A stretch of DNA of 58,197 bases from Patescibacteria group bacterium (lineage in GTDB: Bacteria; Patescibacteriota; Patescibacteriia; UBA1558; GWA2-36-10): the NCBI GenBank assembly GCA_041665545.1, contig JBAYIQ010000005.1:1-58197 (forward strand). The letters are read 5' to 3'. This document shows positions 22,445 through 42,894 of the stretch, piece after piece. The position numbers were made by a program, and so were the translations under genes. Each line of letters starts with the position of its first letter. Position 1 is the first letter of the stretch. Below the pieces are notes generated by a model. That model searched no databases. It was not told the origin of the DNA and saw nothing but the letters and a program-made list of their open reading frames with translations.

Positions 22445-22596
22445 GACGCCTCCAATGGCTTGGGACCAGGAACAGTGACCTATATCACATTCATTGGCCT
22501 TTTATGGCCAAAATGCTTCGAAATTAATGCTTGATGAACTGTAAAACAGTATATCATAGCACAAAAAATAAAAGTTGTCAAGCCACGGTTAAAAAT

Positions 22597-23460: not shown

Positions 23461-23503
23461 TCCCTGCTCCAACACACCACCGTCTTCCCAAAGGAGTATC
23501 AAG

Positions 23504-25228: not shown

Positions 25229-25320
25229 TAGAACTGACTGTCTCTGACGGTCTGAACTCTGAGCCAAAGCTTTCATAGAGGGGAGGCGGTGCTACACAGC
25301 ACCGCCTCCCACTCCAAAAC

Positions 25321-25359
25321 AAGAGGGATCTTTCGTAACCCCTCTTTTTTTATTTTTTA
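25321..25359 (+). terminator. Rho-independent terminator after the flotillin gene
   Basis: Stem aagaggg/ccctctt followed by tttttatttttt. A separate 13-bp-stem hairpin at 25281..25310 has no T-run. Confidence 0.6.
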
Positions 25360-25405
25360 ACCAAAATAAAAAGGGTACTCCCTAATTACACTGTCAACAC
25401 AAAAA

Positions 25406-25456
25406 GACCCTGCACCGGAGCCACGTAAGTGGCGACTGGTACAGGGTCGATTTTTT
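25406..25456. terminator. Bidirectional terminator (nested hairpin gaccctg...cagggtc) flanked by A- and T-runs
   Basis: Serves plus-strand island transcripts and minus-strand ORF 25463..26422. Confidence 0.55.
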
Positions 25457-25462
25457 ATACTT

Positions 25463-27292: not shown

Positions 27293-27805
27293 TCAAGAAA
27301 CTACACCACTCAGCAATCCTTTCAAAAAAACTGAATCAAAAATCGCGCTTGTTATATATATATTATAAATATAGTGCAAGAGCACGGCCCCCATCAGGCC
27401 AAAAACAACATATTTTCTTTTTTCTAACCCAGACATTACCATCAATAAAACAGTAGAAAAATGCATGGGTAGAGGCCATAAAAATCTGGCTAAAAAAAGA
27501 TCATAATCACCCGCTCTAATAAATCCTTCCAAATAAAAAATATTTTCCCAAATACCAAAAATTAGGCCAAAGAAAAAACCCATTAACATTTTTCGGTTCG
27601 AACCAACAAGCTTTAAAATAAAAAAATAAACCACCAAGACCTTGCCTAATTCCTCAAAAACTATTGACCACGAAGGTGCCATTTTCCCCAAAAAAATCAA
27701 CAAAAGCGGTAAAAATGTAGCAAAGATAATTATCAACAATAACGAATTTTTATCGCCATCACCCAGTATTCCTTCTTTGGCTACTTGATCATTTTTCATT
27801 ACCAA
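27293..27805 (-). CDS. PrsW-like intramembrane protease family protein
   Basis: EELGK (EExxK) motif, ENIFY, and conserved His in TM segments. Paralogous to 28854..29312. Confidence 0.5.
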   Translation of the reverse strand: MVMKNDQVAKEGILGDGDKNSLLLIIIFATFLPLLLIFLGKMAPSWSIVFEELGKVLVVYFFILKLVGSNRKMLMGFFFGLIFGIWENIFYLEGFIRAGDYDLFLARFLWPLPMHFSTVLLMVMSGLEKRKYVVFGLMGAVLLHYIYNIYITSAIFDSVFLKGLLSGVVS

Positions 27806-28853: not shown

Positions 28854-29312
28854 TTAAAGCCAAAAAACAAAATAATTATTATAAAAAAAGTGAATCGCCA
28901 TAGTAATTATCATTGCTATTATAATCCAACGCCTATCGCGCCAAGCCAGCAATAACATAAAATAAACCGTCAGCAGATGCATCAAAGTCGGCCAGAAAAA
29001 ACGCCATAAATATAAACTAACAGAATTTTGTTGGGCAAAGTTTAAAAAATAAAAAATGTTTTCGGACATGGCAAAAACTAAAACAAAAACTAAAGCGCCC
29101 CAAACTCTCTGTCCTCCTTGACCAAATTTTAATACCATATAAACCACTACCAAACCCTTAGCGACTTCTTCAATTAATGCTGGATAAGGTAATAGTATCT
29201 TTTCAACAAACAATAATAACAAGGGTAATAATAAGCCAATCAATGCTAAAAAAGTAAAATAACGACTATTGTCTAGGGGCTCTGTTACTAACTTTTTTGT
29301 TACTGTCACCAT
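28854..29312 (-). CDS. PrsW-like intramembrane protease family protein
   Basis: IEEVAKG (EExxK) motif, ENIFYFLNF, and His in the last TM. Confidence 0.5.
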   Translation of the reverse strand: MVTVTKKLVTEPLDNSRYFTFLALIGLLLPLLLLFVEKILLPYPALIEEVAKGLVVVYMVLKFGQGGQRVWGALVFVLVFAMSENIFYFLNFAQQNSVSLYLWRFFWPTLMHLLTVYFMLLLAWRDRRWIIIAMIITMAIHFFYNNYFVFWL

Positions 29313-29317: not shown

Positions 29318-30313
29318 TTAATTACTCTGACTTTTGTTATTGACAAAATTATAAGTGTCCTTAGAAATTAAAGAAATCAAATCTTTGGCTTTGGCTAACT
29401 CAATATTGGAAGTCATGACGCAAATAAAATATGGATTAACCGCATGATAAACAACGCCACAGTCGTGCAAAGCATCCAATCTTTCCCCATATTTATGAGC
29501 TATCTGGACTTCCCAGGGAATCTTGGCTGACAACAAACTTTCTGCTCTAGTATCGGTTGTTAAAGACAATAAATATTCTGAATTATCTGGTGTTAAAAAA
29601 GTGGAATAATATAAAGACTTAAATAATCGGCTATACTCGCGCGGAGTAACATATTGATTGGAATTTTCTGAGATATATGGATTATTGATACCGACATGAG
29701 TAAAGACGGCGTTTAACTCCTCTGGTTGCAATTGCCTTTTCAAAATATTTTTAGCCGTGTTGTCAGATACCTTGAGCATCAGTTTCAACAACTCACTGAC
29801 TGTATAAGATTCATTAACAGTGAAGCGCTCTGGCACGCCAGCGCTTTTGTCAATATCTTCCGCCTTAACCGGCAACTTGTCATCCAAGTTAAGTTGTTTG
29901 TTCTCAATTTTTTTCATGACAGACATGGCAATGGGAATCTTCAATAAGCTAGCTGGAAAAAAATTATCTTTTTCATTGATACCCATCCACGAGCCAGTGT
30001 TGATATCTTGAATATAAATACCTAATTTTTGACTGGGACTCAAAATACTTAAATTTTTCTCCAACTGACTTTTTAAGTCAACAAAATGCAACAATATTTT
30101 ATCTGTCTCTATATTACTATCGATTGGCACCAGCTCAATTTTTTTACTAAGCAAACTATGACTAGCTAACCATTCAGTATTTTTTTTATCTAGTTCAGTT
30201 ATTTTGCTACCACTTTTATAATTGAAAAAAAATAAAATATTAGCTAAAAAAGATAACACCAAAAGCGCAATCAATATGTAAATTTTCTTAACCATAATTT
30301 TTTTCATTAACAA
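29318..30313 (-). CDS. Class A beta-lactamase-like serine hydrolase (secreted)
   Basis: SxxK (SLLK), SDN (SDNTAKN) and K(T/Y)G-like (HKYGE) motifs. Signal/TM at the N-terminus. The start lies 6 nt after the giant-gene stop. Confidence 0.65.
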   Translation of the reverse strand: MLMKKIMVKKIYILIALLVLSFLANILFFFNYKSGSKITELDKKNTEWLASHSLLSKKIELVPIDSNIETDKILLHFVDLKSQLEKNLSILSPSQKLGIYIQDINTGSWMGINEKDNFFPASLLKIPIAMSVMKKIENKQLNLDDKLPVKAEDIDKSAGVPERFTVNESYTVSELLKLMLKVSDNTAKNILKRQLQPEELNAVFTHVGINNPYISENSNQYVTPREYSRLFKSLYYSTFLTPDNSEYLLSLTTDTRAESLLSAKIPWEVQIAHKYGERLDALHDCGVVYHAVNPYFICVMTSNIELAKAKDLISLISKDTYNFVNNKSQSN

Positions 30314-33300
30314 CTATTTTAGTTCTTCAGCATATTCAGCAAACACCCAGCCAACTTTATTTTCAGTTAAAGCTATTTGATACCAGCCAAATTTTTCTAA
30401 ACCCTGAGCCGCCACTTGACTAAGCAAGTCGTATTTTTCTCCGGCACTTACTTTGGCCACAACGGCTGTTTCTTTGGAAGCTTCCTGCCTGACATTGAGC
30501 CAACCAGTTGGTGTATCTTTAATAATAACTTGTTTCTTCATTAAAATATCTTCCGTAGCGGGTACTGTGCTACTAGAAGTGGAACTGGCACTTTCTGAAC
30601 CAAAACTAAAAGCCATATTATTATCAGCTAAAACAGGAATATTATCAAGCTTATTGACGTCAGTTTCAGAGGCGACGGTCACATTGTTGGCTGACCTAAG
30701 TTCGTCAGTCTTAATATATTTTGATAAATTTTGTCTAATATTAGCCAAAATACCATATTTATCAACTAACAAATACAAAACTATAAAAATCAAAACAAAA
30801 GTAATAAGCCAGACTTTATTTTGTCTGATATTTTTGAACAAGCGAGTAAAAAATTGCTTAATATAGATTAAAAAACTTGTCGATACTTTGGCCTTTGCTT
30901 CGACGCTAGCTATATTGGCTGGACTATTTTTGCTAACTGCTGCTTTCTTCTTTTTTCTGCGCCCACCAGAGGAATTCATTTTTTCCATATCAAGCGGCTT
31001 GCCAGTCAAAATATGCGACTGCAAGGCCATCTGACCATTGGCTATGGCTACTTGATGCTTCCACATGGAGAACAAGATGGTCACTAACAAACCAAAGCCG
31101 GTGACAAAAGCAATAATGATCCCCCACACCGAAATGGTCTGTATACCACCCAAGGCTCCCAAAAATCCGCGAGAGGCATCAGCTTGGCTCAATAGTGACT
31201 TCAATTCATCCAATTCTGTCTGCACACTAATAAAACTTTCTTTATTTTCTCGATAAGTCATAATTTTATCTTGCGGGGAGGCAGTATTTTCTTTTTGAGT
31301 ACGCAGAATTTTTTCTACTTTGCTATCAATATCATTTTTGAGTAATAAAGCTTGAGAAGAAAGTTGATTTTTTTCTAATTTCTTATAAAAATCATTGGCC
31401 TGCGTCTTGGCTATAGTCAAATCATTTTCAGCAATCTGCCAAATATCTCGCATTTTAATAAATTTTTTGACCGAAGCACCCGGAGCCAATTCAATCTCGC
31501 CAGCCGCATACAAAGTATCTAGCTGAACATCGTACTGAATATTGAAACCGCCATCATCCATAATGTGCTCTACTTTAGCTTCCTTTGGAAGATAAATCTT
31601 GAATGGCACTTTTTGAGCAGTCTTGGCTGGATTGGAAAGCATGATGTTCAAATCCACTGAACCAGAGGTGTACCAAGTGCTGACTATCGGAGCCGTGGCC
31701 TGCTGAACCACTTGACGCTGAACAGTGGTGACGGCTTTGTAGTCGGCTAATTTATTACGCACATATTTTATATCCGTCATATTCTCCTGCGAGATGGACA
31801 GTATTGAACTCAAAGTATCGCTATCCAGACGGCCCAGTTTGGTATTGATGTTCTGAATGGAGTTGGAGATGGTACCCATGGCTGTGAACATCTCCTCGGG
31901 CTTCACATTGTAAACATTGGTATTGTTGGTGGTACTACTGCCGGAGCCAACTTCAATATTATCAATACTTGTTTCTAGAGTAGCGATGCTAGCTTCAATA
32001 TTATCTAGTTGAGTTTTGATTAAAGCAATATCTGCCTTGATCAAAGTCACGTCGTCCTTGATGCCAGCCACATCGGACTGGATGGTGCTGATCTTAGTCA
32101 CTGGTACGGCTAATGTTTTTAAAATAGTAAAAGCGTCACTGCTAGCTGGCGCAAAGGGAAGATCTGGTTCTACTGTAATGGCTTTGGTTGTACCATTATA
32201 ATCATCTATTCTTCTGGCTACACCACTGTTTTGGCCAGAAGTAAAAGTCAGCAGTGCGTGAGCATATAAATCATTGACAGCGCTGGTAAGATTTGTGCCA
32301 AATAAAGAAATTGTCGGGCTAACTTCGGCTGTAGAAACAGCGGAGCGAATGGCAATCAAATCATTGGACAACAAATCAACTGAGTTACTCACCGCGTCTA
32401 TACTATTACCCAGTGTCGTTTCAGTGGACTGCAAATCAGATAATGTGGCTAGCGACCCACTGTCTAAATCCGCTCCTGATAAATAACGACCACTGTAGGC
32501 CCAAATAGAAGCCGCGTCCAAAGTAGCAGTATTTGAAGTCTGGGCCAAAATAGTAAAGGTGTCAGCATTGGCAGGAGCCAGAGCCAAAGCAGGATCGACC
32601 GTGATCGCCTTGGTGGTGCCATTGTAGCCCATAATCCTTCTCGCCTGACCAATATTTAAACCCGAGGTGAACAATAAGATATTATTTTTATAAAAATCAT
32701 TAGTGGCATTAGTCAAGGCAGTAGCAAATACTGTGGTTGATGGCGCCAAATCATTCACTGAAGTTTCCGAAACAATCAAGGCATTGATAATTTTATCTAG
32801 CTTAGTGCTGTTGACGCTAATAGCACTAGCCAAAACTGTTTCCGTATCTTGAATATCTGACAAAGTAGCTAAAGAACCAGAGTCTAAAGTGGCACCTGAT
32901 AAATACCTGTCGCCATAGGTCCAGATAGCGGCCGCATCAACTGCCGAGTTGGCTGTCTGCGCTAAAATAGTAAAGGTATCGGCATTAACCGGAGCTAAAG
33001 ATAAAGCTGGCGAAACAGTAACCTGTTTGCTAGCCCCGACATAATCGGTAATACGACGCGCTTGACCAGCGTTGACGCCAGAAGTAAAAACCAAGACACC
33101 GTTGTTATAAAAATCATTACTGTTGCTGGTCAAAGTTGTAATAAATTGATTATCTGAAGCGCCGGCATCATTGACCACTTTTTGTTCCACTATTAAATTA
33201 TTAATCAGCGTATTTAATTGTCCGCTCAAAGTACTTTCGGTAGATTGTATATTTGACAAAGTGGCTAAAGATCCGGAGTCTAAAGCGGCGCCTGACAAAT

Positions 33301-36300
33301 AGCGACCATCGTAGGCCCAAATAGCGGCTGCATCAAGTGAGGCATTGGCGGTTGAGGCCAAAATAGTAAAAGTATCACTGCTAGATGGAGCAACCGACAG
33401 AGCCGGAGTAATAGTCAATTTTTTGGTAGCGCCAACATAATTGCTAATGCGTCTAACCTGACCAGCATTGGATCCAGAGGTAAATACCAAAACACCGTCA
33501 TTATAAAAATCATCATTGGCATTGGTCAGGGTGGTAATAAATTCTGTGGTTGAGGGACTTGGGTCATCAACGGCTTTTTGGGCGACCAATAAATTATTTA
33601 TCAAATTGCTTAAACTATTGGCAACCGCTGTCACCTCAGCTGATGAAGCGCGAGAAGAAATAGTAGTATCAATATTGGTTTTTAATAAAGAGCCAATGCT
33701 ATTGATAGTCGTGATTGAGGTCAAAAGTGTATCCCAAACTCGTTGTGCCGTCAGATCGCCAGATGTTAGGGTGCGAGTTTCATAAGTCCAAATTTCAAGA
33801 GCTAAAGCGGCTAAACCATCATTCTCAATACTAGTAATTGTCCTGGTGCCCTCACTCCAAACATCTGATGCCGTCAAATTACTAGTGCCACGAGAAGAAA
33901 TAGTAGCATTCAAATTATCAACTATCAGTTTGCCAATAGAACCACCCGTAGAAAGCAAAGCTGATGCTATATTCCAGACTTGAGCTGGATCAGATAAGGT
34001 GACTCCACCACTCAAACTGCGGCCACCAGCTGACCAGACATCAGCCGCTGAAATATTATTTAAGGCCTGTATGTCAGCCAAAGTAGCCAAGGAGCCACTA
34101 TTCAAAGTAGCGTCAGTCAAACGACGAACATTGTACTCCCATATTTCTTGGGCAGTCGCCCCGCCACCGCCAGTAGCGCTAGAATAATAACTTAAAATAA
34201 TAAATTCATCATTGAAAGCTGGCGCATAAGGCATGGCCGCATCCACCGTAATTGCTTTGGTGGCGCCATTGTAGCTAGAAATTCTACGGGCAATACCAGC
34301 ATTCTGGCCACTCATCATAACCACCATTTGATTTTGATAAAAATTAGAAGTGGCTTGTGTCATGTCTGTCACAAAGACAGTGGCTGAAGCGGCCACATCA
34401 TTGACCAAGCCCCGCTTGATGGCCAAGCGATCATTTAAAAGTTGCCCAAAAGATCCATCAATATCAGCAAATGACCCCACTTGTGCTCCCCAAATACTAG
34501 TAGCCGTCAAGCCAGTTGACAACCACGGCACCACTGGTTGACCAGAAGAATGAAAATCCAAAGTACCAGTATCTACTGTACCCGATAAAACAGCCATATC
34601 ATCTATGTACACCGATGGCTGTCTAAAAATAATATAATCACCCATCGTGGCATTGGTCAGAGTGGTACTTAAAAGATGTGGCACTACTCCACTACCCTTC
34701 AAATACAATAACTGGGCAGTATTTTTTACAATATCAAATATCTTACCATTAGCGTCTTTAAATTTATAGCCGACCCATTGATTGGTGGTCCAACTTTTAT
34801 CAACATCCTCAACAATGATTGGCAAATAATTACCCAAGGAATCATCGATAATTTCACTGGTGCCAGAATCAGCGGCCACAAAAGCTGACTGCACGGAAAA
34901 TTTTATATCGGCAATAGCTGACTCTGTAGGCGTACCAGACACCACAAACTGTTGCCAATCATTAGCCGTGTCTTGTGCTGTCCAAGTAAGGTTGGCACCA
35001 GTCATACCCAGACCAGATAAGGTAACTGTCGGTAAATTAGTAGACCCATAATAACTATTGATATTCATATAGCCCGTAATGGCTAGTGGCTGGTTAGCCA
35101 CACCAATGACTTTGGCTGTATATTCAAGTGGCGCATCAGGATTCAGCGAATCCAGACGCCACGCATAACCACTAGCTGTGTGAGCAGTGGAATCATTGAG
35201 ACCTAACCCGGAAGTTCGCATATTACCAAAAGTGGTAAAATTAACTATGTCTTTAGTCGAGCTAGAATAATTGCCGCGAATATCAGCTCCGGGGATAGTC
35301 AGACCATAAAAATGTTCTGGTATCCTAGACATATTATTATAATCGGCCATGCCAAACAAAACCGGACTTAATAATTGAGTATTAGAGCCGGTAAATTGCA
35401 TCAATGATTCTGCTTCAAAAGTAGTGGTATTAGCTGGTATACTAATATCTGCCTCATTCCAAGAACCACGACCAAAAATACTACCACTATCCATAATACC
35501 CACATTGGCCGTGGTTTGGGCCACGCTGATTCCTGCGCCATATCCAGCTTGATTTAAGGTGACAGTATCCGAGACCGAGCCATCAAAAACATTATCAGAC
35601 ATCGTGAGGAAAGAATTACCATTGAGCCGTATACCAAAATTATTTACTGAAAAAATATTGTTAGCGATAGTCATTTTGGCTACGCCACTATTTAAATTAA
35701 CTGCTCCGCTAGTAATACCCGTCACACCATTATTATAAAACTGGCTATTAGCAATAGTGTACAAACGTCCAGACACAAAAGAAGCCGCACCATTAGCCGA
35801 GGTCAAAGCCGCATTAGTGTTGCGACATCCCATAAATATACTGCCATCAATGCCAACGTTTTGTGAAGCTGTAGCATTATAACCAGTGCCTAAAGTAGTG
35901 GCGCCAAAGTTGGTGGTCACAAAATATGCTCCCACAGTATTAGTGCCTTGAGTTTTGGCTGATACCGTATAAGCACGATCATAATAATTATAAAATACTG
36001 ACTTACTGACTGTCTGTGTTGGTTTGACCAATGTGGAAGTATAAGGATTGTTCATTATAGAAAAATTACTATACTGATTCTCAGTAGAAAGATGACTAAC
36101 GTTCAGATTCGCTAAACCTGACAAACCCACAGCTACTGTACCAAAAGCATTGCCCATGTGTATGGGCGTGGCCACTGTGGCACCGGTAGCATTTATTTCC
36201 TCATCCGACCACATGTGTATACTACGCTTGAGATTCAACACTGGCGAATTGTAAGGAGCTGAAGTAGAGTCCCGCTTGGCCTTGTGATGGAAAGTAAAAT

Positions 36301-39300
36301 TATTTGACCAGCCAGCCAAAGTGGCCGCTGTACCATTTTCTAGAAAACCAGAACCAAACTTTATCCTAGCTGATGGTGTGTATTTTTCTCCAGTATTATC
36401 CACCCATATTCTTGTGCGATCCGGATAGGTCACAACTCTTATTCTATCATTGCCCGTATCAGCACCGTTGGTAAAAATCATGGCTGGATTGCCATAGGCA
36501 TAGTCTGCCCAAACAAAACCCTCTTGAGGATTCATGGCCGCGTCAAAACTAGCGCGAAAAATATTAATACCAGTACTAGTCGCGTAGCCAGTACCGACAG
36601 TCTCACCTCCCACCCAAGCGCTGGTTGGTGGTGTAAAGTTACCCCAGTCAGTGGCCGAAGTACTGATAGAATTATCAAAAATCGCAAACTCATCCAAAGC
36701 GCCATCAAAAGGCGCAGCAAAATCATAACGATTACCGAGCTTAATCAAACCAGCGTTTATACCTCTAGTACCGACAGCCGACCCCTGACCAATGGTAAAG
36801 GCCGTGCCATTCAACCAAGCTCTTTTGGCGTTAGCTGTTTCATCCCAAGCCAAACGAAAATGATACCAAGTACCAGCGGTAGCTGAAAATGCTTGCCTTA
36901 ACAAGGTACCTTGAGCAGCGGCGGCATACAGGCCAACTTCCAAGAAACCTTCTGGGGTAGAACTGGAAGTATTTATGTGCCTGATAAATAAACGATCAGT
37001 ATCTATCTGAGCAACATTGGCTTGATCAAGCAAATACATACCATAAGGATGCGTGCTAGTAGCTGGATAACCGTTATAAGAGGGCTTGAACCAAAAATCA
37101 ATTGTGCCATTTTGTCTGGTGGTAATTGTGCCACTTTGGGCCTCAATATTATACCTAGTTGGCACCGCGCTACCAGTCAAAGTAAATGCTGGAGCTATCA
37201 TCACCGCGCTACCTATGCCATTCTGACCAGTCCAAGAACCAGTATTGCGTCGCATGTTATCCTGCAAGAGCAATTGACGCGCGCCAAATTTTGGTCCAGT
37301 CGGTGTGCCAGAATTTATACGCAAAGAGATTTCACTATTTGGCGATGTATAGGTACTACCTGCCGTAGCCGTACCAGCAGCACCAGTAGCACTACCAGTG
37401 ACATCATATTTACCACTAGTAGGGTTCCATTCGAAATCCCAAACTTCATATTTGGTATTGACACCAGTAGTAATTGGCACGCTACTATCAAGACCAAAAC
37501 TATTTCTAATAGCCGTAGAACCAATATATATCTTATCCCCTATTTCCGGATTTACTACGCCATTCCAACCACCTTTGTGTTTGATAATAAAATTAAGATA
37601 ACTGCTAGTAAAAGGAACACTCGGATAAGCCGTGCCTATCAGACCAGCACTTTCTCCGGTCACTCGCCAAGAACCAGTATTATTAAAATTATCAGAAAAA
37701 CCAAGGTCCGTGCTTAAATTATCAAATTTTACTTTATTACCCACACCAGCCGAACCAGCACCAGCATAAACACCAAAGCGACCACCTGCGTAGGTGGCAT
37801 TCGTCTGAGAAGTATCCCACGACCCTTCGGTCGGATCAGTATCACAATCTGTGGTAGCCCAAAACTTAGCATTGAGAGTGGTGCCTACGGCCTGCGCTTT
37901 GAGACAATACCAAGCAGAAGTGGCAAAGGCCTTGGAAAAAGCTGAGCCAATTACTGTCGGCACACCTGCCAAGGTAGTATATAAACCAATGGTATTGACT
38001 GCGTTAGTTTTGTTAATCAAAGCGGCATAGCCATTACCATCAATACTTTGCCTAAAAGTAAGACCTAATTTCCTATTACTACCGTCTTCCACATTATCCA
38101 TATACACCAATGCTTTGATGGTATAATCGCCATCACTCAAACTTCCATAGCTATTATGCAAAGCTATGTTGGCTTGATTTGTTTCATTGATATTTAATGT
38201 CCCGTCACTGATGTGCCAAATATAAGGAGCCGACGGCAAAACATTTACTGTACTGGCCATTCTTTGCACCTCTACCCAACCTGGGGAATTACCATATTCC
38301 AACATATACTGCTCATTGGGATTATAGGTGGCTCCTGGTGTCACAGCGCCAATCTTGGCTTCTTGCACGCCAGAAGACACGGTGATGGCTCCAGAGGAAA
38401 GTCTCTCAATACCACTCATGCCCATAGGAGTGGTCTGGTTGGTCGGAGAGGTGGTCCAAGAACTGACTGAATCAACTTTTAATCTAACCCAATAAGCATT
38501 AACTCCATTAACAGTTGTCTTGGCCGGAGTGCCAGTCAAATCATTTGGTGTCCAGGATAAAATACGACGATTGTTAGTAGCGCCATTTTCCGTCAAAAAA
38601 TTACTAGGATTAAAAGACTTCCATTGCCCGCCATTCAATCGGCTGATTGTTGCTGTTTGATCCGTGGTATAGCCCAAGGGCACCGGCTCGGTAAAGGTAA
38701 TAACGCCAGCGGCGATTACGCTAATGCGTCGATAAATAGGATCAGAATTATTATCGTCAATCATCACTACTTGATCAACACCAAAGTTAGCTTGATTGCC
38801 AGAGGTCACTGACACAGTATAAGAATTTATAGTTGTATTGGCTGACAATGGCACGGAATGTCCGGTACGCATTTGGTATTTATAAGCATCGCGGGGTGTA
38901 AAAGATGTCCAGCCAGCGCCATTATAAAATTGCCATGACAAGGAAGCGCTAGCATCCATGGCTACACCCATATTCAACTCCAAAGAATAAATCATGTTAC
39001 TACCTTGATCGCCAAAATATATAGCATCATCAGCCTCTACTGTTGGATTGGCCCCATCCACAAACATGGTCCAAGCTGATGTAGTAGCATAGTTTCCAGA
39101 AAAACCACTTGTACCATTATTATTATAAATATCAGTCAGGGGTATGGTGCCAATTTCTGCCACTTCCATATTTGGTGTGGGCAAAGAATTACGTCCACCA
39201 GCGGTAGCTAGTCCTGTCCAAACTGGAAACTGATTACCATCATCATTGGCTCCCATCCGTAAAGATGAAAAATTGTTATCAACTGCTTGGTTGGTAGCGC

Positions 39301-42300
39301 CAGCGACAGCTATGTTATCCAGTGGCTGCCAATTACCCACTACATTATCCTTGACATCTACCCAAGTATTGCCAGCATCAGCGGAATTGTTACCCAAGAA
39401 ACCCGTGTCAATATTACCATCAATATCTACAGCTAAGTCGCTTTTCATGGTCCGAAAAGCGTCTGAGCCAGCAACATAAAGATTTGTACGCCCGGCGCGA
39501 GCATTTTGTTGAGTAGCCGTAATAGCGCCAGTCATAGTATAAATACCCGCTCGCCTATCAGCTCCAGTAGGTAATTCGGTAGCTGGTCCCTTGGCCACAA
39601 AAGCACTTTGCCCCGTAGTATAGCCCACAACCAAGTTGGCTGTGACCGTAAGCGTTGTCGCATTTTCAACAGCCGCTACTATTCTAGTTGTGGGTAAAGA
39701 ATCATTATCGTCAATTATAATAGTATCACCGGGGTTAAAACCAGTAGTAGAAATTACTGTCAAAGTAGCGCTAACGGCTGTGTCAGCATTTAAATTTGTA
39801 TTGACTGCTGGACTAACATTATCCCAATATATATCTACCAGAGACGAAGCGGGAATAGCCGCTCCACTTTGACCAAAGGCCACTGAAGCATCGGAATCTA
39901 CTAATATTTTGCCAGGGATAGTCAGGCGATAATGCTTGTTAGCACTGGTATCAACATTTAGCTTGGAACCGGGGCAAACAACCGCTGATATCCAACCGCC
40001 ATTTTGTGAATAAGCCGAGTAGTTGGTACGCGTGCCTGCACCATCATTGATGGCATCACCTGACTTACCGGTGTAAGCCATAGCCGCGTCCCAATCACGA
40101 TCTATTGTTACCACGTGCTCTTGTTTGCTAGACCAGTTAAGATCATTTGTTAAAGCCGAGGCATCACCCGTATCTGGATCAGCTTTTCCATTACCAACTA
40201 TTATAAGATCACCATCAGCTGGGGCTGCGGTATTACCCGTACCGTAGGCCACAAAGAAAATGTGTCTATTGCTTAAAAAAGGATAACGAACAAGCGAAGT
40301 TGCCAAAGCTTCCATTTTAGCATAAAACAACAACACGGATGTGGTGCGCGCTAAAAGAGTTGTAGTGCCTGCTGGATTTTGAGTATGATTAAATGTGGTC
40401 CATTTCATTACCGCACCATCAGCCGGAGTACTAACGGACATGTTAGCTGAAATTTCAGCTATCTGAGCATTATCTGCTGTGTTATAACCAGTGACAAAAG
40501 CTGCGTCCAAAATAAGTGATGGCCCACCGCCACAATTAACATCTGTGCCATTTACTGTCGAAATAAAGCGAGTAACAACGACATTGGAATTATTATCCCA
40601 AATCGCGACACTGGGCGAAGTACCAACAGCCGCGGTAAATCCAGCAATACTAGCCACGCAGACTCTAGTAGTGGCTGTAGAATTTGCTGTCAATGTGGTT
40701 ATGGCTCCCTGGACTATTCTTTGTTTCCACGTAGCTTGCGCTATACTAGCATTTTTATCAGTAGTAAAACCAATCACTGTGGCGGCTGTGGTGATAATAG
40801 AAGCACCGCCCGAACAATTAGAATCAACCTCATTTACTGAAGCTACGGTTAAGGAAACAGTGGTTGTATTGGAATCCCACAAGTTTATTGTTTGATTAGC
40901 AGCAAAACCAGTTATTGAAGCCACACACAACCTAGTTGTCGCCGTAGAATTAGCAGTCAGGGTAGTAAATGGTACTCCATCGTTGACCCAGGAAGCTGCT
41001 GTACCACCAGTGGCTGGGGTAGTTAATTTTCTACTTTGGGTACCGGAAACAGAACCAGCCAATGTCCAATTTGAGCTGGCCGAAGAATAAGTGGCAGTCC
41101 AGTGTTGATTTTCGGTACGCCTTACTGTCGGCATACCAGTACCAGCTGCTGAGTTGCCAGCTACCATAGCGGTAAGCAAACCAGCAGCGCTAGAATTACC
41201 GGTCAAAACCAAAGGCATATTCACGGTTGGAGCGCTGGCGCCAGCAATATCAGTAACACCAATGGTTCTCAATGTGCCATCAACTGTAGGAAAATTACCA
41301 TAAGGAGCATTAGCGGCCCAAGTACCAAAAACAGGAGCGCCAGCGCCAAAGTTGCTAATACGAATACCGTAATGTTTGGTGGTCAATACACCCACTGCTG
41401 GATCAAAACGAAAATCAATCATAGCATGCCCAAAATTTCCTGGCGTCAAGTTTTCACCAGACAAGGCCTGATTGAACTGCCAAATAGTTTTGCGCAACAC
41501 TATTGTATCGTCTGGGTAGTTGTAAGCACCCTGAGTGCCGGTAACATATCCCGTGCAAGAGGTAGTGCAACTAGCTGTCGGAAACTCCAAAAGCTCAACC
41601 AAAATATCCGGATTTGATAAAGAAGTAGCCGTCGGATTTTCCATGGATAACATAATGCCAGACAAATCAGCGCTGGCATTGGGTTTGAAACCAATAAACT
41701 GTGAGGTGGCCAAAGTAGCATTGGCTGCCAAGGCCAAATACCCAATTGCCTGTCCACCAGCACTACCATCAGTCGTGCCACCAGGATTGATTGGGTTAAA
41801 ATTGCCAGACTCAGCATCACCGTTGACGCCGTCGCCAGAATAAGCCAAAGCCGTCAGCCAATTTGAACCACTTAAAGTGGTAGTTTGCCCAGAAACTTTT
41901 ACCAAGCCAGTGAAAGTAGCAGCATAAGCTGGTGTCCGATCTCTAAAAAGCCACTCAAAAAGTGGAGTTAAAGAAGCCACACCTAGTGTGGAAATAACCA
42001 AAAAGAAAATCATCCAGCCAGCCATCGCTCGCCTCAACAACAATTGATTTGGCTCCCTGAGTAATTTCTTAAAATCACCAAAACCAATGACCGGTGACAT
42101 GGCCTCCTGAACTTCGCGTCCTTTGGGTAATATCTTTTTTTCGTATGTTTGAGGAATATATTTAATAAATGGCTTAGCTAGCCACAACATAAACAATTTA
42201 AATTCTTTAACCCTAAAGTTAAATTTAATCTTCAGTGACTTGGGACTGGCAAATAAACTAACCGCTTTAGCCCCAAAAAATCCTAAAAATTTGACATAAA

Positions 42301-42745
42301 AAACAATTGTCGCGTACCAGACAATTTTTAATAAATAAAAAATAATTAAATATAGCGCTTTAAAAATATAAAATACCGCTTGAGCCAAGGCATTGGCTAT
42401 AAAACGCATACCTTTTTCTAAAGCTGGGGCTTTTTCTTTGATAAAATAATAAAAACGACTCAAATATTTCCAAGAAAAACGGAAAAAATTTTTCAAAAAT
42501 GGCCCTAAGTCCTCGACAATAAACTCTTTAACCATTGGAGCCAACCATTTTATAAAACGCCAACAATTTTTGAATATAAAAACCAAAACTACTGACAATA
42601 GATAGCCAACTAGCACTAATATTGAACCGACTATCTTAGCTAACCAGACCAATGAATAAAGTATAAATTCTAGAATTTTAATAATTGTTTTTCTGTGGCG
42701 GATAGATGGTTTTAGTCGCCACGAGGGAAGTAGATGTCTATTCAT
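30314..42745 (-). CDS. Giant membrane-anchored surface protein (4143 aa)
   Basis: Uninterrupted 12.4-kb ORF. N-terminal cluster of TM helices, then a Thr/Ser/Gly/Asn-rich ectodomain with parallel beta-helix-like repeats and a LamG/ConA-like segment (DFWFKPS...WYHFRLAWDE...FDGALDEFAIFD). Five ~133-aa tandem repeats follow, then a coiled-coil, two TM helices and a C-terminal SH3b-like domain (GWLNVR...GWYQI...GWV). Confidence 0.8.
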   Translation of the reverse strand: MNRHLLPSWRLKPSIRHRKTIIKILEFILYSLVWLAKIVGSILVLVGYLLSVVLVFIFKNCWRFIKWLAPMVKEFIVEDLGPFLKNFFRFSWKYLSRFYYFIKEKAPALEKGMRFIANALAQAVFYIFKALYLIIFYLLKIVWYATIVFYVKFLGFFGAKAVSLFASPKSLKIKFNFRVKEFKLFMLWLAKPFIKYIPQTYEKKILPKGREVQEAMSPVIGFGDFKKLLREPNQLLLRRAMAGWMIFFLVISTLGVASLTPLFEWLFRDRTPAYAATFTGLVKVSGQTTTLSGSNWLTALAYSGDGVNGDAESGNFNPINPGGTTDGSAGGQAIGYLALAANATLATSQFIGFKPNASADLSGIMLSMENPTATSLSNPDILVELLEFPTASCTTSCTGYVTGTQGAYNYPDDTIVLRKTIWQFNQALSGENLTPGNFGHAMIDFRFDPAVGVLTTKHYGIRISNFGAGAPVFGTWAANAPYGNFPTVDGTLRTIGVTDIAGASAPTVNMPLVLTGNSSAAGLLTAMVAGNSAAGTGMPTVRRTENQHWTATYSSASSNWTLAGSVSGTQSRKLTTPATGGTAASWVNDGVPFTTLTANSTATTRLCVASITGFAANQTINLWDSNTTTVSLTVASVNEVDSNCSGGASIITTAATVIGFTTDKNASIAQATWKQRIVQGAITTLTANSTATTRVCVASIAGFTAAVGTSPSVAIWDNNSNVVVTRFISTVNGTDVNCGGGPSLILDAAFVTGYNTADNAQIAEISANMSVSTPADGAVMKWTTFNHTQNPAGTTTLLARTTSVLLFYAKMEALATSLVRYPFLSNRHIFFVAYGTGNTAAPADGDLIIVGNGKADPDTGDASALTNDLNWSSKQEHVVTIDRDWDAAMAYTGKSGDAINDGAGTRTNYSAYSQNGGWISAVVCPGSKLNVDTSANKHYRLTIPGKILVDSDASVAFGQSGAAIPASSLVDIYWDNVSPAVNTNLNADTAVSATLTVISTTGFNPGDTIIIDDNDSLPTTRIVAAVENATTLTVTANLVVGYTTGQSAFVAKGPATELPTGADRRAGIYTMTGAITATQQNARAGRTNLYVAGSDAFRTMKSDLAVDIDGNIDTGFLGNNSADAGNTWVDVKDNVVGNWQPLDNIAVAGATNQAVDNNFSSLRMGANDDGNQFPVWTGLATAGGRNSLPTPNMEVAEIGTIPLTDIYNNNGTSGFSGNYATTSAWTMFVDGANPTVEADDAIYFGDQGSNMIYSLELNMGVAMDASASLSWQFYNGAGWTSFTPRDAYKYQMRTGHSVPLSANTTINSYTVSVTSGNQANFGVDQVVMIDDNNSDPIYRRISVIAAGVITFTEPVPLGYTTDQTATISRLNGGQWKSFNPSNFLTENGATNNRRILSWTPNDLTGTPAKTTVNGVNAYWVRLKVDSVSSWTTSPTNQTTPMGMSGIERLSSGAITVSSGVQEAKIGAVTPGATYNPNEQYMLEYGNSPGWVEVQRMASTVNVLPSAPYIWHISDGTLNINETNQANIALHNSYGSLSDGDYTIKALVYMDNVEDGSNRKLGLTFRQSIDGNGYAALINKTNAVNTIGLYTTLAGVPTVIGSAFSKAFATSAWYCLKAQAVGTTLNAKFWATTDCDTDPTEGSWDTSQTNATYAGGRFGVYAGAGSAGVGNKVKFDNLSTDLGFSDNFNNTGSWRVTGESAGLIGTAYPSVPFTSSYLNFIIKHKGGWNGVVNPEIGDKIYIGSTAIRNSFGLDSSVPITTGVNTKYEVWDFEWNPTSGKYDVTGSATGAAGTATAGSTYTSPNSEISLRINSGTPTGPKFGARQLLLQDNMRRNTGSWTGQNGIGSAVMIAPAFTLTGSAVPTRYNIEAQSGTITTRQNGTIDFWFKPSYNGYPATSTHPYGMYLLDQANVAQIDTDRLFIRHINTSSSTPEGFLEVGLYAAAAQGTLLRQAFSATAGTWYHFRLAWDETANAKRAWLNGTAFTIGQGSAVGTRGINAGLIKLGNRYDFAAPFDGALDEFAIFDNSISTSATDWGNFTPPTSAWVGGETVGTGYATSTGINIFRASFDAAMNPQEGFVWADYAYGNPAMIFTNGADTGNDRIRVVTYPDRTRIWVDNTGEKYTPSARIKFGSGFLENGTAATLAGWSNNFTFHHKAKRDSTSAPYNSPVLNLKRSIHMWSDEEINATGATVATPIHMGNAFGTVAVGLSGLANLNVSHLSTENQYSNFSIMNNPYTSTLVKPTQTVSKSVFYNYYDRAYTVSAKTQGTNTVGAYFVTTNFGATTLGTGYNATASQNVGIDGSIFMGCRNTNAALTSANGAASFVSGRLYTIANSQFYNNGVTGITSGAVNLNSGVAKMTIANNIFSVNNFGIRLNGNSFLTMSDNVFDGSVSDTVTLNQAGYGAGISVAQTTANVGIMDSGSIFGRGSWNEADISIPANTTTFEAESLMQFTGSNTQLLSPVLFGMADYNNMSRIPEHFYGLTIPGADIRGNYSSSTKDIVNFTTFGNMRTSGLGLNDSTAHTASGYAWRLDSLNPDAPLEYTAKVIGVANQPLAITGYMNINSYYGSTNLPTVTLSGLGMTGANLTWTAQDTANDWQQFVVSGTPTESAIADIKFSVQSAFVAADSGTSEIIDDSLGNYLPIIVEDVDKSWTTNQWVGYKFKDANGKIFDIVKNTAQLLYLKGSGVVPHLLSTTLTNATMGDYIIFRQPSVYIDDMAVLSGTVDTGTLDFHSSGQPVVPWLSTGLTATSIWGAQVGSFADIDGSFGQLLNDRLAIKRGLVNDVAASATVFVTDMTQATSNFYQNQMVVMMSGQNAGIARRISSYNGATKAITVDAAMPYAPAFNDEFIILSYYSSATGGGGATAQEIWEYNVRRLTDATLNSGSLATLADIQALNNISAADVWSAGGRSLSGGVTLSDPAQVWNIASALLSTGGSIGKLIVDNLNATISSRGTSNLTASDVWSEGTRTITSIENDGLAALALEIWTYETRTLTSGDLTAQRVWDTLLTSITTINSIGSLLKTNIDTTISSRASSAEVTAVANSLSNLINNLLVAQKAVDDPSPSTTEFITTLTNANDDFYNDGVLVFTSGSNAGQVRRISNYVGATKKLTITPALSVAPSSSDTFTILASTANASLDAAAIWAYDGRYLSGAALDSGSLATLSNIQSTESTLSGQLNTLINNLIVEQKVVNDAGASDNQFITTLTSNSNDFYNNGVLVFTSGVNAGQARRITDYVGASKQVTVSPALSLAPVNADTFTILAQTANSAVDAAAIWTYGDRYLSGATLDSGSLATLSDIQDTETVLASAISVNSTKLDKIINALIVSETSVNDLAPSTTVFATALTNATNDFYKNNILLFTSGLNIGQARRIMGYNGTTKAITVDPALALAPANADTFTILAQTSNTATLDAASIWAYSGRYLSGADLDSGSLATLSDLQSTETTLGNSIDAVSNSVDLLSNDLIAIRSAVSTAEVSPTISLFGTNLTSAVNDLYAHALLTFTSGQNSGVARRIDDYNGTTKAITVEPDLPFAPASSDAFTILKTLAVPVTKISTIQSDVAGIKDDVTLIKADIALIKTQLDNIEASIATLETSIDNIEVGSGSSTTNNTNVYNVKPEEMFTAMGTISNSIQNINTKLGRLDSDTLSSILSISQENMTDIKYVRNKLADYKAVTTVQRQVVQQATAPIVSTWYTSGSVDLNIMLSNPAKTAQKVPFKIYLPKEAKVEHIMDDGGFNIQYDVQLDTLYAAGEIELAPGASVKKFIKMRDIWQIAENDLTIAKTQANDFYKKLEKNQLSSQALLLKNDIDSKVEKILRTQKENTASPQDKIMTYRENKESFISVQTELDELKSLLSQADASRGFLGALGGIQTISVWGIIIAFVTGFGLLVTILFSMWKHQVAIANGQMALQSHILTGKPLDMEKMNSSGGRRKKKKAAVSKNSPANIASVEAKAKVSTSFLIYIKQFFTRLFKNIRQNKVWLITFVLIFIVLYLLVDKYGILANIRQNLSKYIKTDELRSANNVTVASETDVNKLDNIPVLADNNMAFSFGSESASSTSSSTVPATEDILMKKQVIIKDTPTGWLNVRQEASKETAVVAKVSAGEKYDLLSQVAAQGLEKFGWYQIALTENKVGWVFAEYAEELK
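32200..33650. repeat. Intragenic tandem repeats (~400-bp period, about 4 copies) inside the giant gene
   Basis: Near-identical DNA blocks (...gagtctaaag...cctgataaata...cccaaatag...) recur at about 32450, 32870 and 33255. Corresponds to the FTSGxNxGxxRRIxxYxGxTK...DTFTILA...LDSGSLATLS protein repeats. Confidence 0.7.
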
Positions 42746-42842
42746 AAAAATACAAAAATTTTATTATTTTTTATTTTTTAACTAGCTATATTATAACACA
42801 AAGTAAAAAAATCTCATAATAAATCATCAACATTAATTCTAA

Positions 42843-42866
42843 CAAAAAACCACCGCTAATTGGTGG
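42843..42866 (-). terminator. Rho-independent terminator (ccacc-gctaatt-ggtgg) downstream of the AlkD-like gene
   Basis: Hairpin with A-run on the plus strand (T-run on the minus-strand transcript). Confidence 0.5.
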
Positions 42867-42894
42867 CTAAAAATTGCTAAAATTTATTATAAAA

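What the first reader, a model, noticed from the sequence alone, without database searches (positions are those of the whole stretch)
30314..42745. 4143-aa membrane-anchored giant surface protein with beta-helix, LamG-like, tandem ~133-aa repeats and a terminal SH3b-like domain
A single uninterrupted 12.4-kb ORF makes up about 21% of the window. Predicted topology has an N-terminal cluster of TM helices, then a ~3600-aa Thr/Ser/Asn/Gly-rich ectodomain. The ectodomain holds parallel beta-helix-like repeats (NxxG/N-rich, e.g. SGRLYTIANSQFYNNGVTGITSGAVNLNSGVAKMTIANNIFS), a LamG/ConA-like lectin fold, and five ~133-aa tandem repeats (FTSGxNxGxxRRIxxYxGxTKxxTVxPALxxAPxxxDTFTILA...LDSGSLATLS). At DNA level about four near-identical ~400-bp units span 32.2-33.7 kb. 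A coiled-coil, two TM helices flanking a KKKK loop and an extracellular SH3b-like domain follow. The stop lies 6 nt before the ATG of a class-A beta-lactamase-like hydrolase. Giant adhesin-like proteins are typical of episymbiotic small-genome bacteria, but this domain order is not one I recognise. The tandem repeats are a likely site of copy-number variation.
Basis: partly seen in the sequence, partly recalled or inferred. Interest (0 to 1): 0.6.

Follow-up and report, generated by a model that had tools for sequence, protein, structure and literature searches.

The report
Giant surface protein with fused anchor
This is a real 4143-residue membrane-anchored surface protein of an ultrasmall (Patescibacteria) bacterium; its tail end matches a previously undescribed membrane-anchor module that in many other uncultured bacteria is a separate small gene right after a giant gene.

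Summary
The 12.4-kb ORF (window 30314-42745, minus strand) is real. The same protein appears in two assemblies, and intact 3556-4303-aa orthologues occur in 9 of 12 related genome loci.
- hydrophobic N-terminal segments;
- a LamG domain that passes Pfam's threshold;
- a beta-helix region, supported only through homologues;
- five ~135-aa units (1 + 4 in tandem) with a phage/GTA baseplate-hub-like core;
- a helical stalk, two TM helices around an RRKKKK loop, and a C-terminal SH3b domain;
- a stop codon 6 nt before the ATG of a class-A-beta-lactamase-fold serine hydrolase.

One claim is wrong. The DNA repeats are not near-identical: identity is 48-68% and the longest shared run is 15 nt.

New findings:
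- The family is rare: 13 hits among 1.84 billion representative proteins.
- Unit number varies from 1 to 5 between species.
- A small PrsW-type membrane protease gene sits at the 3' end in most loci.
- Residues ~3650-3900 form a confidently modelled beta-sandwich, helix bundle and TM module. Elsewhere this module is usually a separate ~260-aa secreted, tail-anchored protein encoded just after a giant ORF, and the split falls between its first two strands.

The likely function is a wall-tethered surface fibre for cell contact. That function is inferred, not shown.

The parts
30314..42745 (-). Giant ORF, 4143 aa plus stop codon
   Evidence: The exact protein is found on NCBI contig JBAZSO010000005.1 and on a Logan assembly of SRR6484324.
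42790..42817 (-). Promoter-like site with extended -10 (TG-TATAAT), about 45 nt before the ATG. It follows a terminator-like hairpin at 42848-42868.
   Evidence: consensus scans only
41954..42685 (-). N-terminal hydrophobic cluster (aa 21-264). Three blocks; the last (aa 240-264) is the signal-anchor that precedes the ectodomain.
   Evidence: Hydropathy. Relatives keep at least the last helix.
40454..40966 (-). Two ~85-aa internal repeats (aa 594-670 and 683-764, 51% identical)
38639..39952 (-). Most conserved part of the family (aa ~1000-1300, 65% mean column identity). It is flanked by two copies of a ~70-aa small domain (aa 932-1052 and 1246-1369).
   Evidence: P0018, which carries related small domains, hits the SH3-like NHase_beta_C model.
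36662..37141 (-). LamG / concanavalin-A-like domain (aa 1869-2028)
   Evidence: Pfam Laminin_G_3 37.7 bits against cut-off 27.6. Found in 5 of 10 family members. Family profile hits pentraxin 3flp, E 2e-4.
35498..36016 (-). Right-handed beta-helix-like region (aa 2244-2416)
   Evidence: Pfam Beta_helix passes its cut-off in 2 family members, and the P0009 hit maps here. No direct hit in the window protein.
34052..34480 (-). Unit 1 of the ~135-aa repeat (aa 2756-2898): baseplate-hub-like core, then an IWxYxxRxL...SGSLATL segment
32075..33643 (-). Units 2-5 in tandem (aa 3035-3557). The last unit is truncated and runs into the helical stalk.
   Evidence: Pfam Phage_BR0599 62.3 bits; PHROG 778; TIGR02218 42.9 bits, below cut-off
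31688..32098 (-). Helical / coiled-coil stalk (aa ~3550-3686)
   Evidence: Weak profile hits to trimeric coiled coils (sigma-1, gp26 needle, Lpp, TAA; E 0.03-0.7). Helix H1 in the AF2 model.
31049..31687 (-). Anchor module (aa 3687-3899): 7-strand beta-sandwich, three long helices and TM helix 3870-3899
   Evidence: AF2 mean pLDDT 89.8. 41 database homologues, 33 of them stand-alone. 78 metagenome loci.
30737..30823 (-). Second C-terminal TM helix (aa 3975-4003), after the basic RRKKKK loop
30332..30499 (-). C-terminal SH3b domain (aa 4083-4138)
   Evidence: Pfam SH3_3. 1-4 copies in relatives. PDB 2kt8, E 0.005.
29318..30307 (-). Class-A-beta-lactamase-fold serine hydrolase gene, 6 nt after the giant's stop
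   Evidence: Pfam Beta-lactamase2, E 3e-48. NCBIfam bla_class_A 107 bits against cut-off 200. Next to the giant gene in 6 of 13 loci.
28854..29312 (-). Small PrsW-type intramembrane metalloprotease gene (152 aa)
   Evidence: Pfam PrsW-protease 31.1 bits. Motifs EExxK, SEN, H and HxxYN are kept. Found at the giant's 3' end in about 9-10 of 13 loci.
27293..27805 (-). Second PrsW-type paralogue (170 aa)

Best explanation
The ORF encodes a cell-surface fibre of a Patescibacteria (Moranbacteria-like) cell, held in the cytoplasmic membrane at both ends.

SHOWN OR STRONGLY SUPPORTED
- Topology from hydropathy: an N-terminal signal-anchor, a ~3600-aa external part, TM, a basic cytoplasmic loop, TM, then an external SH3b domain.
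- The external part contains a LamG lectin-type domain, a region homologous to right-handed beta-helices, several small beta-barrel-like inserts, and one to five ~135-aa units. Each unit core resembles part of phage/GTA baseplate-hub proteins. Helical segments separate the units.
- The last ~500 aa form a dedicated anchor: helical stalk, 7-strand beta-sandwich, three-helix bundle, TM hairpin, SH3b.
- This anchor is a fused version of a separate ~260-aa secreted, tail-anchored protein. In other uncultured bacteria that protein is encoded directly after a giant ORF.

INFERRED
- SH3b ties the anchor to the cell's own peptidoglycan.
- The unit-plus-helix array is a stalk of adjustable length that carries the sugar-binding head (LamG, beta-helix, conserved core) through and beyond the wall, to contact a host or partner cell surface.
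- In the split systems the giant protein docks on its anchor by donating its C-terminal strand (PVVxTWYEY) as the first strand of the anchor's sandwich. Here that joint is covalent.
- The adjacent PrsW-type protease and serine hydrolase help mature the protein or open the wall for it.
For: Gene is real and under selection:
- The exact protein occurs in two assemblies.
- Intact collinear orthologues of 3556-4303 aa at 46-73% identity occur in 9 of 12 GTDB loci. Collinear homologues P0007, P0009 and P0010 were also found.

Domains.

Topology is conserved in all members.

Unit number is 1, 2, 4 or 5 in different species.

Anchor module:
- AF2 gives pLDDT 89.8 and pTM 0.70.
- 41 homologues were found. 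33 have a signal-peptide-like N-terminus and a C-terminal TM.
- In 6 of 6 contexts first examined the gene follows a 1200 to >4987-aa ORF whose last residues align with window aa ~3655-3692.
- Among 78 metagenome loci, 13 are fused. 24 of the 27 split loci with at least 3 kb of upstream DNA have an upstream ORF of at least 1000 aa, and every one of these is cut by the contig or flank edge. 19 of the 24 carry the terminal strand motif.
- The split point lies between strands E1 (3687-3692) and E2 (3699-3704) of the model.

Partner genes:
- PrsW-like in 7 loci as full ORFs plus 2 at locus edges, in either orientation.
- Serine hydrolase in 6 loci.
- Upstream genes are not conserved.

Literature: giant membrane proteins of CPR bacteria are thought to mediate host attachment (PMC8080830, PMC11809585).
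Against: - There is no experimental or expression evidence.
- Adhesion to a host is inferred only from domain types and from the lifestyle of cultivated relatives.
- About 70% of the ectodomain (aa 265-1868, 2030-2240, 2420-2750) has no recognisable domain. The AF2 attempt on aa 1441-2640 failed (pLDDT 29.9).
- Beta-helix support is indirect.
- TM topology rests on a hydropathy scan, not a dedicated predictor.
- The trimeric-fibre idea rests on weak coiled-coil hits (E 0.03-0.7).
- Strand donation in trans was not modelled.
- PrsW adjacency could be inherited synteny within one clade rather than functional coupling.
- Three orthologues are split by a frameshift or stop (L003/L004, L008, L009). 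The gene may therefore be dispensable in some lineages, or those may be sequencing errors.
Confidence: 0.55

Rival explanations
1. Envelope scaffold rather than adhesin. The protein spans and organises the cell's own wall or S-layer (a wall-tethered structural fibre like staphylococcal Ebh) and does not recognise a host.
For: - It is anchored in the membrane at both ends and has a peptidoglycan-binding SH3b domain.
- It is linked to a penicillin-binding-type serine hydrolase.
- In the split family the genes sit in a housekeeping neighbourhood, beside the ATP synthase operon.
Against: - LamG and beta-helix modules and a rapidly diverging, length-variable stalk are more typical of receptor-binding proteins.
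- The family is confined to a few species. That is unusual for a core envelope component.
Confidence: 0.25
2. Surface-tethered glycan-degrading enzyme. The beta-helix region is a polysaccharide lyase or hydrolase, as in phage tailspikes. The protein digests host or environmental polymers for feeding.
For: - Beta_helix homology in family members.
- LamG carbohydrate-binding fold.
- Giant Omnitrophota proteins are proposed to degrade prey walls (bioRxiv 10.1101/2023.11.21.568195).
Against: - No catalytic family was hit in Pfam, NCBIfam or PDB sequences.
- The beta-helix stretch is short (~170 aa).
- No catalytic residues could be assigned.
Confidence: 0.1
3. Phage-derived element. The ORF is a prophage or tailocin tail component, suggested by the baseplate-hub domain.
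For: Phage_BR0599, TIGR02218 and PHROG 778 matches in the repeat core.
Against: - The match covers only profile positions 2-51 of 80. It is below the TIGR02218 cut-off (42.9 against 80.5).
- All neighbours are cellular genes.
- No relative was found in 2.9 million viral contigs with the pattern used.
- The module has no match in predicted viral structures.
- The chromosomal position next to PrsW is conserved.
Confidence: 0.03
4. Artefact. The ORF is an assembly chimera, a collapsed repeat or a decaying pseudogene.
For: It comes from a short-read MAG. Three orthologues are interrupted.
Against: - 4143 stop-free codons in 41% GC DNA.
- An identical protein in two assemblies.
- Collinear intact orthologues.
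- Repeats are too diverged to collapse: at most 68% nt identity and runs of at most 15 nt.
Confidence: 0.01

Closest known systems
Giant membrane/surface proteins of CPR (Patescibacteria) bacteria, e.g. Vampirococcus lugosii (PMC8080830) and Patescibacterium danicum (PMC11809585)
   Same: Proteins of more than 4000 aa in ultrasmall, host-dependent bacteria. They are predicted to be membrane-bound and extracellular, proposed to mediate host attachment, lineage-specific, and short of full-length homologues.
   Different: Those proteins carry WD40, TPR, PKD, DUF11, integrin, fibronectin, FhaB or DUF2341 domains. This one has LamG, beta-helix, baseplate-hub-like units and SH3b, plus a defined C-terminal anchor module and PrsW-type and serine-hydrolase neighbours.
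Omnitrophota giant proteins (bioRxiv 10.1101/2023.11.21.568195)
   Same: Transmembrane segments plus long extracellular, carbohydrate-binding regions. Gene neighbourhoods are conserved. A contact or predation role is proposed.
   Different: They are ten times larger (over 30,000 aa), carry SecA-DEAD domains, are preceded by T2SS-like loci and are followed by pilZ genes. None of this is seen here.
Phage / gene transfer agent baseplate hub protein (TIGR02218; Pfam PF09356 Phage_BR0599; PHROG 778)
   Same: The ~50-aa core of each repeat unit (FTSGxNxGxxRRI...P..xDxFxIL) aligns with part of this family.
   Different: The match is partial. It lacks the N-terminal half of hub proteins and the rest of the PF09356 model. 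The core is repeated 1-5 times inside a cellular membrane protein, with no phage context.
Gram-positive wall-associated giant proteins with a C-terminal membrane anchor (e.g. Staphylococcus aureus Ebh) and SH3b cell-wall-targeting domains (from my own knowledge, not tested here)
   Same: A very long repetitive ectodomain, a C-terminal TM segment with a basic cytoplasmic stretch, and peptidoglycan-binding SH3b.
   Different: No sequence relationship was detected. Here there is a TM hairpin with SH3b outside, and an extra N-terminal anchor.
Trimeric fibres: phage tail fibres and needles, reovirus sigma-1, trimeric autotransporter adhesins
   Same: Small beta domains alternate with coiled-coil segments. 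There are weak profile hits to sigma-1, gp26 and TAA stalks.
   Different: The hits are not significant (E 0.03-0.7). Oligomeric state is unknown. No autotransporter beta-barrel is present, and the organism presumably has no outer membrane (from my own knowledge of CPR bacteria, not tested here).

Membership tests
Pfam Laminin_G_3 (PF13385), ConA-like lectin/glucanase superfamily | Score at or above the gathering cut-off (27.6 bits) over most of the model | tested here: met
   37.7 bits, aa 1869-2028, model positions 9-146 of 151, when the 520-aa tile is scanned. 5 of 10 family members hit.
Pfam Beta_helix (PF13229), right-handed parallel beta-helix | Score at or above the gathering cut-off (25.9 bits) | tested here: inconclusive
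   No hit in the window protein and no PDB sequence hit with the family profile. Two homologues pass (best E 1e-10). P0009 aa 2184-2338 aligns to window aa 2244-2416.
Phage/GTA baseplate hub protein (NCBIfam TIGR02218, equivalog) | Whole-protein score at or above 80.5 bits, covering the 266-position model | tested here: not met
   42.9 bits, model positions 163-221 only.
Pfam Phage_BR0599 (PF09356) domain | Score at or above 22.9 bits and coverage of the 80-position model | tested here: inconclusive
   62.3 bits summed over 4 stretches, but each stretch covers only positions 2-51 of 80. The unit profile has no PDB sequence match.
Bacterial SH3 (Pfam SH3_3, PF08239) | Score at or above 27 bits | tested here: met
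   27.4 bits on the whole protein and 30.8 bits on a tile. Homologues reach 93-109 bits with 1-4 copies.
TIGR04211 SH3-and-anchor family | Score at or above 65 bits | tested here: not met
   22.1 bits, SH3 part only.
Class A beta-lactamase (NCBIfam NF033103), for the downstream gene | Score at or above 200 bits | tested here: not met
   107.1 bits. The fold family Pfam Beta-lactamase2 is met (164 bits). NCBI names it 'serine hydrolase'.
PrsW family intramembrane metalloprotease (PF13367), for the two small downstream genes | Gathering cut-off 23.5 bits, and the conserved EExxK and His/Asn motifs | tested here: met
   31.1 and 28.0 bits, model positions ~51-176 of 196. The EExxK, SEN, H and HxxYN columns are conserved in 8 sequences. 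Catalytic activity was not tested.
FhaB- or DUF2341-type large Patescibacteria exoproteins (PMC11809585) | Presence of FhaB or DUF2341 domains | tested here: not met
   No such Pfam hit in the window protein or its family. DUF2341 does occur in the giant ORF upstream of a stand-alone anchor gene in L018.
Giant-ORF-associated anchor module (defined here; no public family) | A NPS...K.YLPKE...YD...DIW beta-sandwich, then helices and a C-terminal TM, fused to or directly after a very large ORF | tested here: met
   Profile A6 and alignment A7. AF2 model. Context counts.

The most novel reading that the evidence does not exclude
The C-terminal module defines an undescribed, widespread docking system for giant bacterial surface proteins. 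Its parts would be:
- a dedicated ~260-aa secreted, tail-anchored membrane protein whose beta-sandwich lacks its first strand;
- a giant protein that supplies that strand from its extreme C-terminus (PVVxTWYEY) and is thereby fastened to the membrane.

In the Moranbacteria-like lineage of this window the two genes have fused and gained a TM hairpin plus SH3b. A metalloprotease gene accompanies both forms: PrsW-type here and Peptidase_MA_2 elsewhere. In the split lineages the pair sits directly upstream of the ATP synthase and type-IV-pilus-like genes.
Probability: 0.35. Interest if true: 0.7.

Novelty: new variant of a known kind. Interest (0 to 1): 0.55.

Why it matters
How ultrasmall, host-dependent Patescibacteria hold on to other cells is largely unknown. 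Their giant proteins are the usual suspects but are almost entirely unannotated. This locus adds three things:
- a defined, conserved family with a readable domain order;
- a stalk whose length changes between species (1-5 units);
- two conserved partner genes.

More generally, it points to one anchor module shared, fused or split, by many otherwise unrelated giant proteins in metagenomes (78 loci from a single peptide pattern). If the strand-donation idea holds, it explains how such proteins are fastened to the cell. It also gives a simple sequence handle (K.YLPKE module plus terminal PVVxTWYEY tail) for finding giant surface proteins in fragmented assemblies.

Tried and rejected
- The whole-protein search of the 5.8-billion-protein database timed out. 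Segment searches returned only 5 and 1 hits and missed known long homologues, so that index seems to under-represent giants.
- AF2 on aa 1441-2640 with a 2-sequence alignment was useless (pLDDT 29.9). No fold claim is made for aa 265-1868 or 2030-2750.
- Tandem Repeats Finder found no DNA array.
- The full family profile against PDB sequences gave only pentraxin, SH3b and generic coiled coils. The repeat-unit profile gave nothing. The beta-helix-region profile gave nothing meaningful.
- A viral-contig scan with the repeat-unit pattern found no relatives. Only one pattern was used, so this is weak negative evidence.
- The first search for related loci attempt, with the full-length alignment, failed for lack of conserved columns. 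It was rerun with aa 1000-1300.
- I considered a cleavable signal peptide at aa 240-277 (AYA|A). I did not adopt it, because the site lies ~14 residues past the hydrophobic core.
- The taxon of the split-type loci could not be determined with the remaining tools.
- Literature searches found no description of this family or of the anchor module.
Full report

The ORF. The ORF listing gives one ORF at window 30314..42745 on the minus strand, 4143 aa with an ATG start. The translation has no internal stop. Such a run cannot arise by chance in 41% GC DNA.

Source. The exact protein is on record on NCBI contig JBAZSO010000005.1 (GCA_041662385.1, 58,206 bp) and on an independent Logan assembly of run SRR6484324. 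NCBI names the neighbouring proteins 'Patescibacteria group bacterium'. Relatives are named Candidatus Moranbacteria or Moraniibacteriota.

Composition is T/A/S/G/N-rich with 0.3% Cys.

Hydropathy. Kyte-Doolittle scans show three N-terminal hydrophobic blocks (aa 21-62, 119-151, 240-264). Then come ~3600 residues with none, followed by two helices at aa 3861-3896 and 3975-4003 around a loop with RRKKKK.

Gene ends. The stop TAG (30316-30314) is followed by 6 nt and the ATG (30307) of a Beta-lactamase2-fold protein. Upstream there is a terminator-like hairpin and an extended -10 promoter-like site ~45 nt before the ATG. No terminator-like site separates the giant gene from the next two genes.

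2. DOMAINS

On the whole protein Pfam reports only two families:
- Phage_BR0599: 62.3 bits, four stretches, each covering model positions 2-51 of 80.
- SH3_3: 27.4 bits against a cut-off of 27.

Scanning 520-aa tiles adds Laminin_G_3 at aa 1869-2028 (37.7 bits against 27.6). A family profile also hits a pentraxin (E 2e-4).

Nothing in the window protein hits a beta-helix model. But Pfam Beta_helix passes its threshold in 2 of 10 family members (best E 1e-10). I call the beta-helix supported by homology only.

NCBIfam places the repeat core in TIGR02218, 'phage/gene transfer agent baseplate hub protein'. It scores 42.9 bits against a cut-off of 80.5, and PHROG 778 agrees. The protein is not a hub protein. 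It contains a hub-like sub-domain.

Two regions have no recognisable domain: aa 265-1868, and aa 2030-2750 apart from the beta-helix-like stretch. AF2 on aa 1441-2640 with only two sequences gave pLDDT 29.9 and is discarded.

3. REPEATS

Tile-against-self BLAST and an HMM of the units give five ~135-aa units at aa 2756-2898, 3035-3172, 3170-3304, 3307-3444 and 3446-3557. The last unit is truncated.
- Units 2-4 are 58-64% identical in protein. All other pairs (any pair involving unit 1 or unit 5) are 36-43% identical.
- In DNA all pairs are 48-68% identical, and the longest exact shared run is 15 nt.
- Tandem Repeats Finder reports nothing.

The 'near-identical ~400-bp units' claim is therefore wrong. 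Assembly collapse or frequent slippage is not a concern.

Two further internal repeats exist: aa 594-670 with 683-764 (51% identical), and aa 932-1052 with 1246-1369 (30% identical).

4. THE FAMILY

An exhaustive HMMER search of 1.84 billion representatives with aa 1-1200 finds only 13 proteins. The full-length collinear relatives are P0007 (4253 aa), P0009 (3639 aa) and P0010 (3726 aa); the list also holds P0008 (2732 aa, lacking the C-terminal part) and P0012 (3034 aa, lacking the N-terminal part).

A scan of one genome per GTDB species finds 12 loci.
- Nine hold intact ORFs of 3556-4303 aa.
- Two are split (L008, L009).
- One is cut by the contig end (L012).

A further homologue (L003/L004) is broken by one frameshift at a G-run.

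All members keep at least one N-terminal TM helix, the C-terminal pair of TM helices and 1-4 SH3b domains. Domain counts across ten members are SH3_3 in 6, LamG in 5, BR0599 in 4 and Beta_helix in 2.

The number of ~135-aa units differs:
- 1 unit in eleven members;
- 2 units in L015 (identical to P0009);
- 4 units in L017;
- 5 units in the window and its two closest relatives, L006 and L007.

The array is thus a site of evolutionary expansion, not of rapid variation.

5. GENE NEIGHBOURHOOD

Upstream genes are not conserved. Downstream genes are:
- A 130-170-aa PrsW-type membrane protease gene lies within ~1 kb of the giant's 3' end in 7 loci as a complete ORF, and in 2 more at locus edges. It occurs in either orientation.
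- The serine hydrolase is there in 6 loci.

The small proteases keep the EExxK, SEN, H and HxxYN columns expected of PrsW/CPBP-type glutamate-zinc intramembrane proteases. The window has two copies and no others elsewhere.

The hydrolase has the class A beta-lactamase fold but scores 107 bits against the 200-bit equivalog cut-off. All other neighbours are ordinary cellular genes, so there is no prophage context.

6. THE C-TERMINAL ANCHOR MODULE (NEW)

Window aa ~3655-3900 are strongly conserved in the family. A profile of this stretch (A6) finds 41 proteins.
- 33 are stand-alone proteins of ~235-340 aa with a signal-peptide-like N-terminus and a C-terminal TM helix.
- None has a Pfam domain on record.

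With these sequences AF2 models window aa 3650-3900 at mean pLDDT 89.8 and pTM 0.70:
- helix H1, aa 3653-3680;
- a seven-strand beta-sandwich, from E1 (3687-3692, IVSTWY) to E7 (3758-3765);
- three long helices, aa 3773-3865;
- a TM helix, aa 3870-3899.

Genomic context:
- In 6 of 6 contigs first examined, the stand-alone gene lies 35-212 nt after a very large ORF (1226 to >4987 aa; LamG and DUF2341 where annotated).
- The last residues of those ORFs, '...D.xYLKNKTxELKA...KPVVxTWYEYK*', align with window '...DIKYVRNKLADYKAV...APIVSTWYTSGS'. The mature anchors start with 'SIVLKxxVVNPS', which is strand E2.
- In a metagenome scan (78 loci, one peptide pattern), 13 loci are fused.
- Of the 27 split loci with at least 3 kb upstream, 24 have an upstream same-strand ORF of at least 1000 aa. 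All 24 are truncated by the contig or flank edge, and 15 span at least 3145 aa, nearly the whole upstream DNA held. 19 of the 24 end with the strand motif. Two more have smaller ORFs and one has none.

So the module is almost always fused to, or directly behind, a giant gene. The break falls between the first two strands of its sandwich.

In the split lineages the pair is followed co-directionally by other genes. The counts are among 37 loci with enough downstream DNA:
- a Peptidase_MA_2 gene in 22;
- F-type ATP synthase genes in 33;
- T2SSE/T2SSF-type genes in 24.

I could not determine the taxon of these lineages.

7. MECHANISM

Shown: topology by hydropathy, domain content, conservation, the anchor module, and its fused and split forms.

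Inferred:
(a) SH3b, placed outside by the TM hairpin, ties the C-terminal anchor to the cell's peptidoglycan.
(b) The unit-plus-helix array is a spacer whose length evolves. It lifts the LamG, beta-helix and conserved-core head beyond the wall.
(c) The head binds glycans on another cell. This fits what is proposed for giant proteins of CPR bacteria (PMC8080830, PMC11809585).
(d) In split systems the giant docks by donating strand E1 to the anchor's incomplete sandwich.
(e) The PrsW-type protease and the serine hydrolase mature the protein or open the wall.

Weak coiled-coil similarities (sigma-1, gp26 needle, Lpp, TAA; E 0.03-0.7) hint at an oligomeric fibre but do not establish it.

8. RIVALS

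- Own-envelope scaffold, probability 0.25. It fits the double anchoring and wall-related neighbours. It fits less well with lectin-type modules and the narrow distribution.
- Tethered glycan-degrading enzyme, 0.1. It rests only on the beta-helix.
- Prophage or tailocin part, 0.03. The partial domain match, the cellular context and the negative viral scans speak against it.
- Artefact, 0.01. See section 1.

9. COMPARISON WITH THE KNOWN, AND NOVELTY

Giant membrane proteins in Patescibacteria are known as a class, but they are lineage-specific and unannotated. 149 of 2.1 million NCBI Patescibacteria proteins exceed 4000 aa, and 82 of those carry FhaB or DUF2341 (PMC11809585).

This family lacks those domains. 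It also differs from the Omnitrophota giants, which have SecA-DEAD domains, T2SS-like upstream loci and pilZ genes downstream (bioRxiv 10.1101/2023.11.21.568195).

I file it as a new variant of a known kind. What is new:
- the family itself;
- the hub-like repeat stalk;
- the conserved PrsW-type and hydrolase partners;
- the anchor module shared with many other giant genes.

I found no description of that module in Pfam, NCBIfam, PDB or the paper library.

10. VERDICT

The 'giant surface, adhesin-like protein' interpretation is reasonable but unproven.

Interest is 0.55. It is a solid, rare family with a testable anchoring mechanism, but there is no functional evidence and most of the ectodomain is still unread.

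Noticed in passing
window 14083-14745 (+): A tRNA gene is interrupted by a ~590-nt group I intron. The 5' half is at 14083-14117, the Rfam Intron_gpI hit (81 bits) is at 14473-14696, and the 3' half ends ...GGTTCAAATCCCTCCCTCGGAGCCA near 14745. ARAGORN and the Rfam tRNA model both miss the gene. The anticodon loop reads CU-GUA-A. An ORF inside the intron ends ...CANCHRELHAK, which looks like an HNH endonuclease.
   Followed up: partly
window 22000-26000: This stretch has GC 0.54-0.56, against 0.32-0.46 in the rest of the window. It holds a 574-aa SPFH/Band_7 protein (23504-25228 +) and a weak NfeD-like ORF (22870-23460 +). It may be horizontally acquired. The many overlapping ORFs there are a side effect of the high GC.
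   Followed up: partly
L003 10780-10900 and L004 (same sequence); L008; L009: Three orthologues of the giant gene are split in two. L003/L004 are broken by one frameshift at a GGGG run, seen in both a JGI and a Logan assembly. These could be sequencing errors, real pseudogenes or programmed shifts.
   Followed up: partly
L027-L104 (metagenome loci), L018-L026: In the lineages with a separate anchor gene, the order is strikingly conserved and co-directional: giant ORF, anchor, Peptidase_MA_2 (22 of 37), F-type ATP synthase operon (33 of 37), then T2SSE/T2SSF-type genes (24 of 37). The organisms were not identified.
   Followed up: partly
L006, L008, L009, L011, L013, L017 (record titles): Six of the 12 GTDB loci carrying this Patescibacteria-type gene are titled 'uncultured Gammaproteobacteria' or 'Bdellovibrionales' MAGs. 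L016 is a 945-kb chromosome titled Saccharibacteria. The taxon labels of these TPA records look unreliable, but I did not check them.
   Followed up: no
alignment A3 members: One family member gives a strong Peptidase_M32 (carboxypeptidase Taq) hit, E 1.6e-26, that the others lack. I did not determine which member or where in it, so I did not check whether it is a fusion or a mis-joined ORF.
   Followed up: no
window 26482-27219 (-), 27827-28642 (-), 44268-45548 (-): Three ORFs of 245, 271 and 426 aa near the giant gene have no Pfam or NCBIfam family. The 271-aa ORF lies between the two PrsW-type genes.
   Followed up: no
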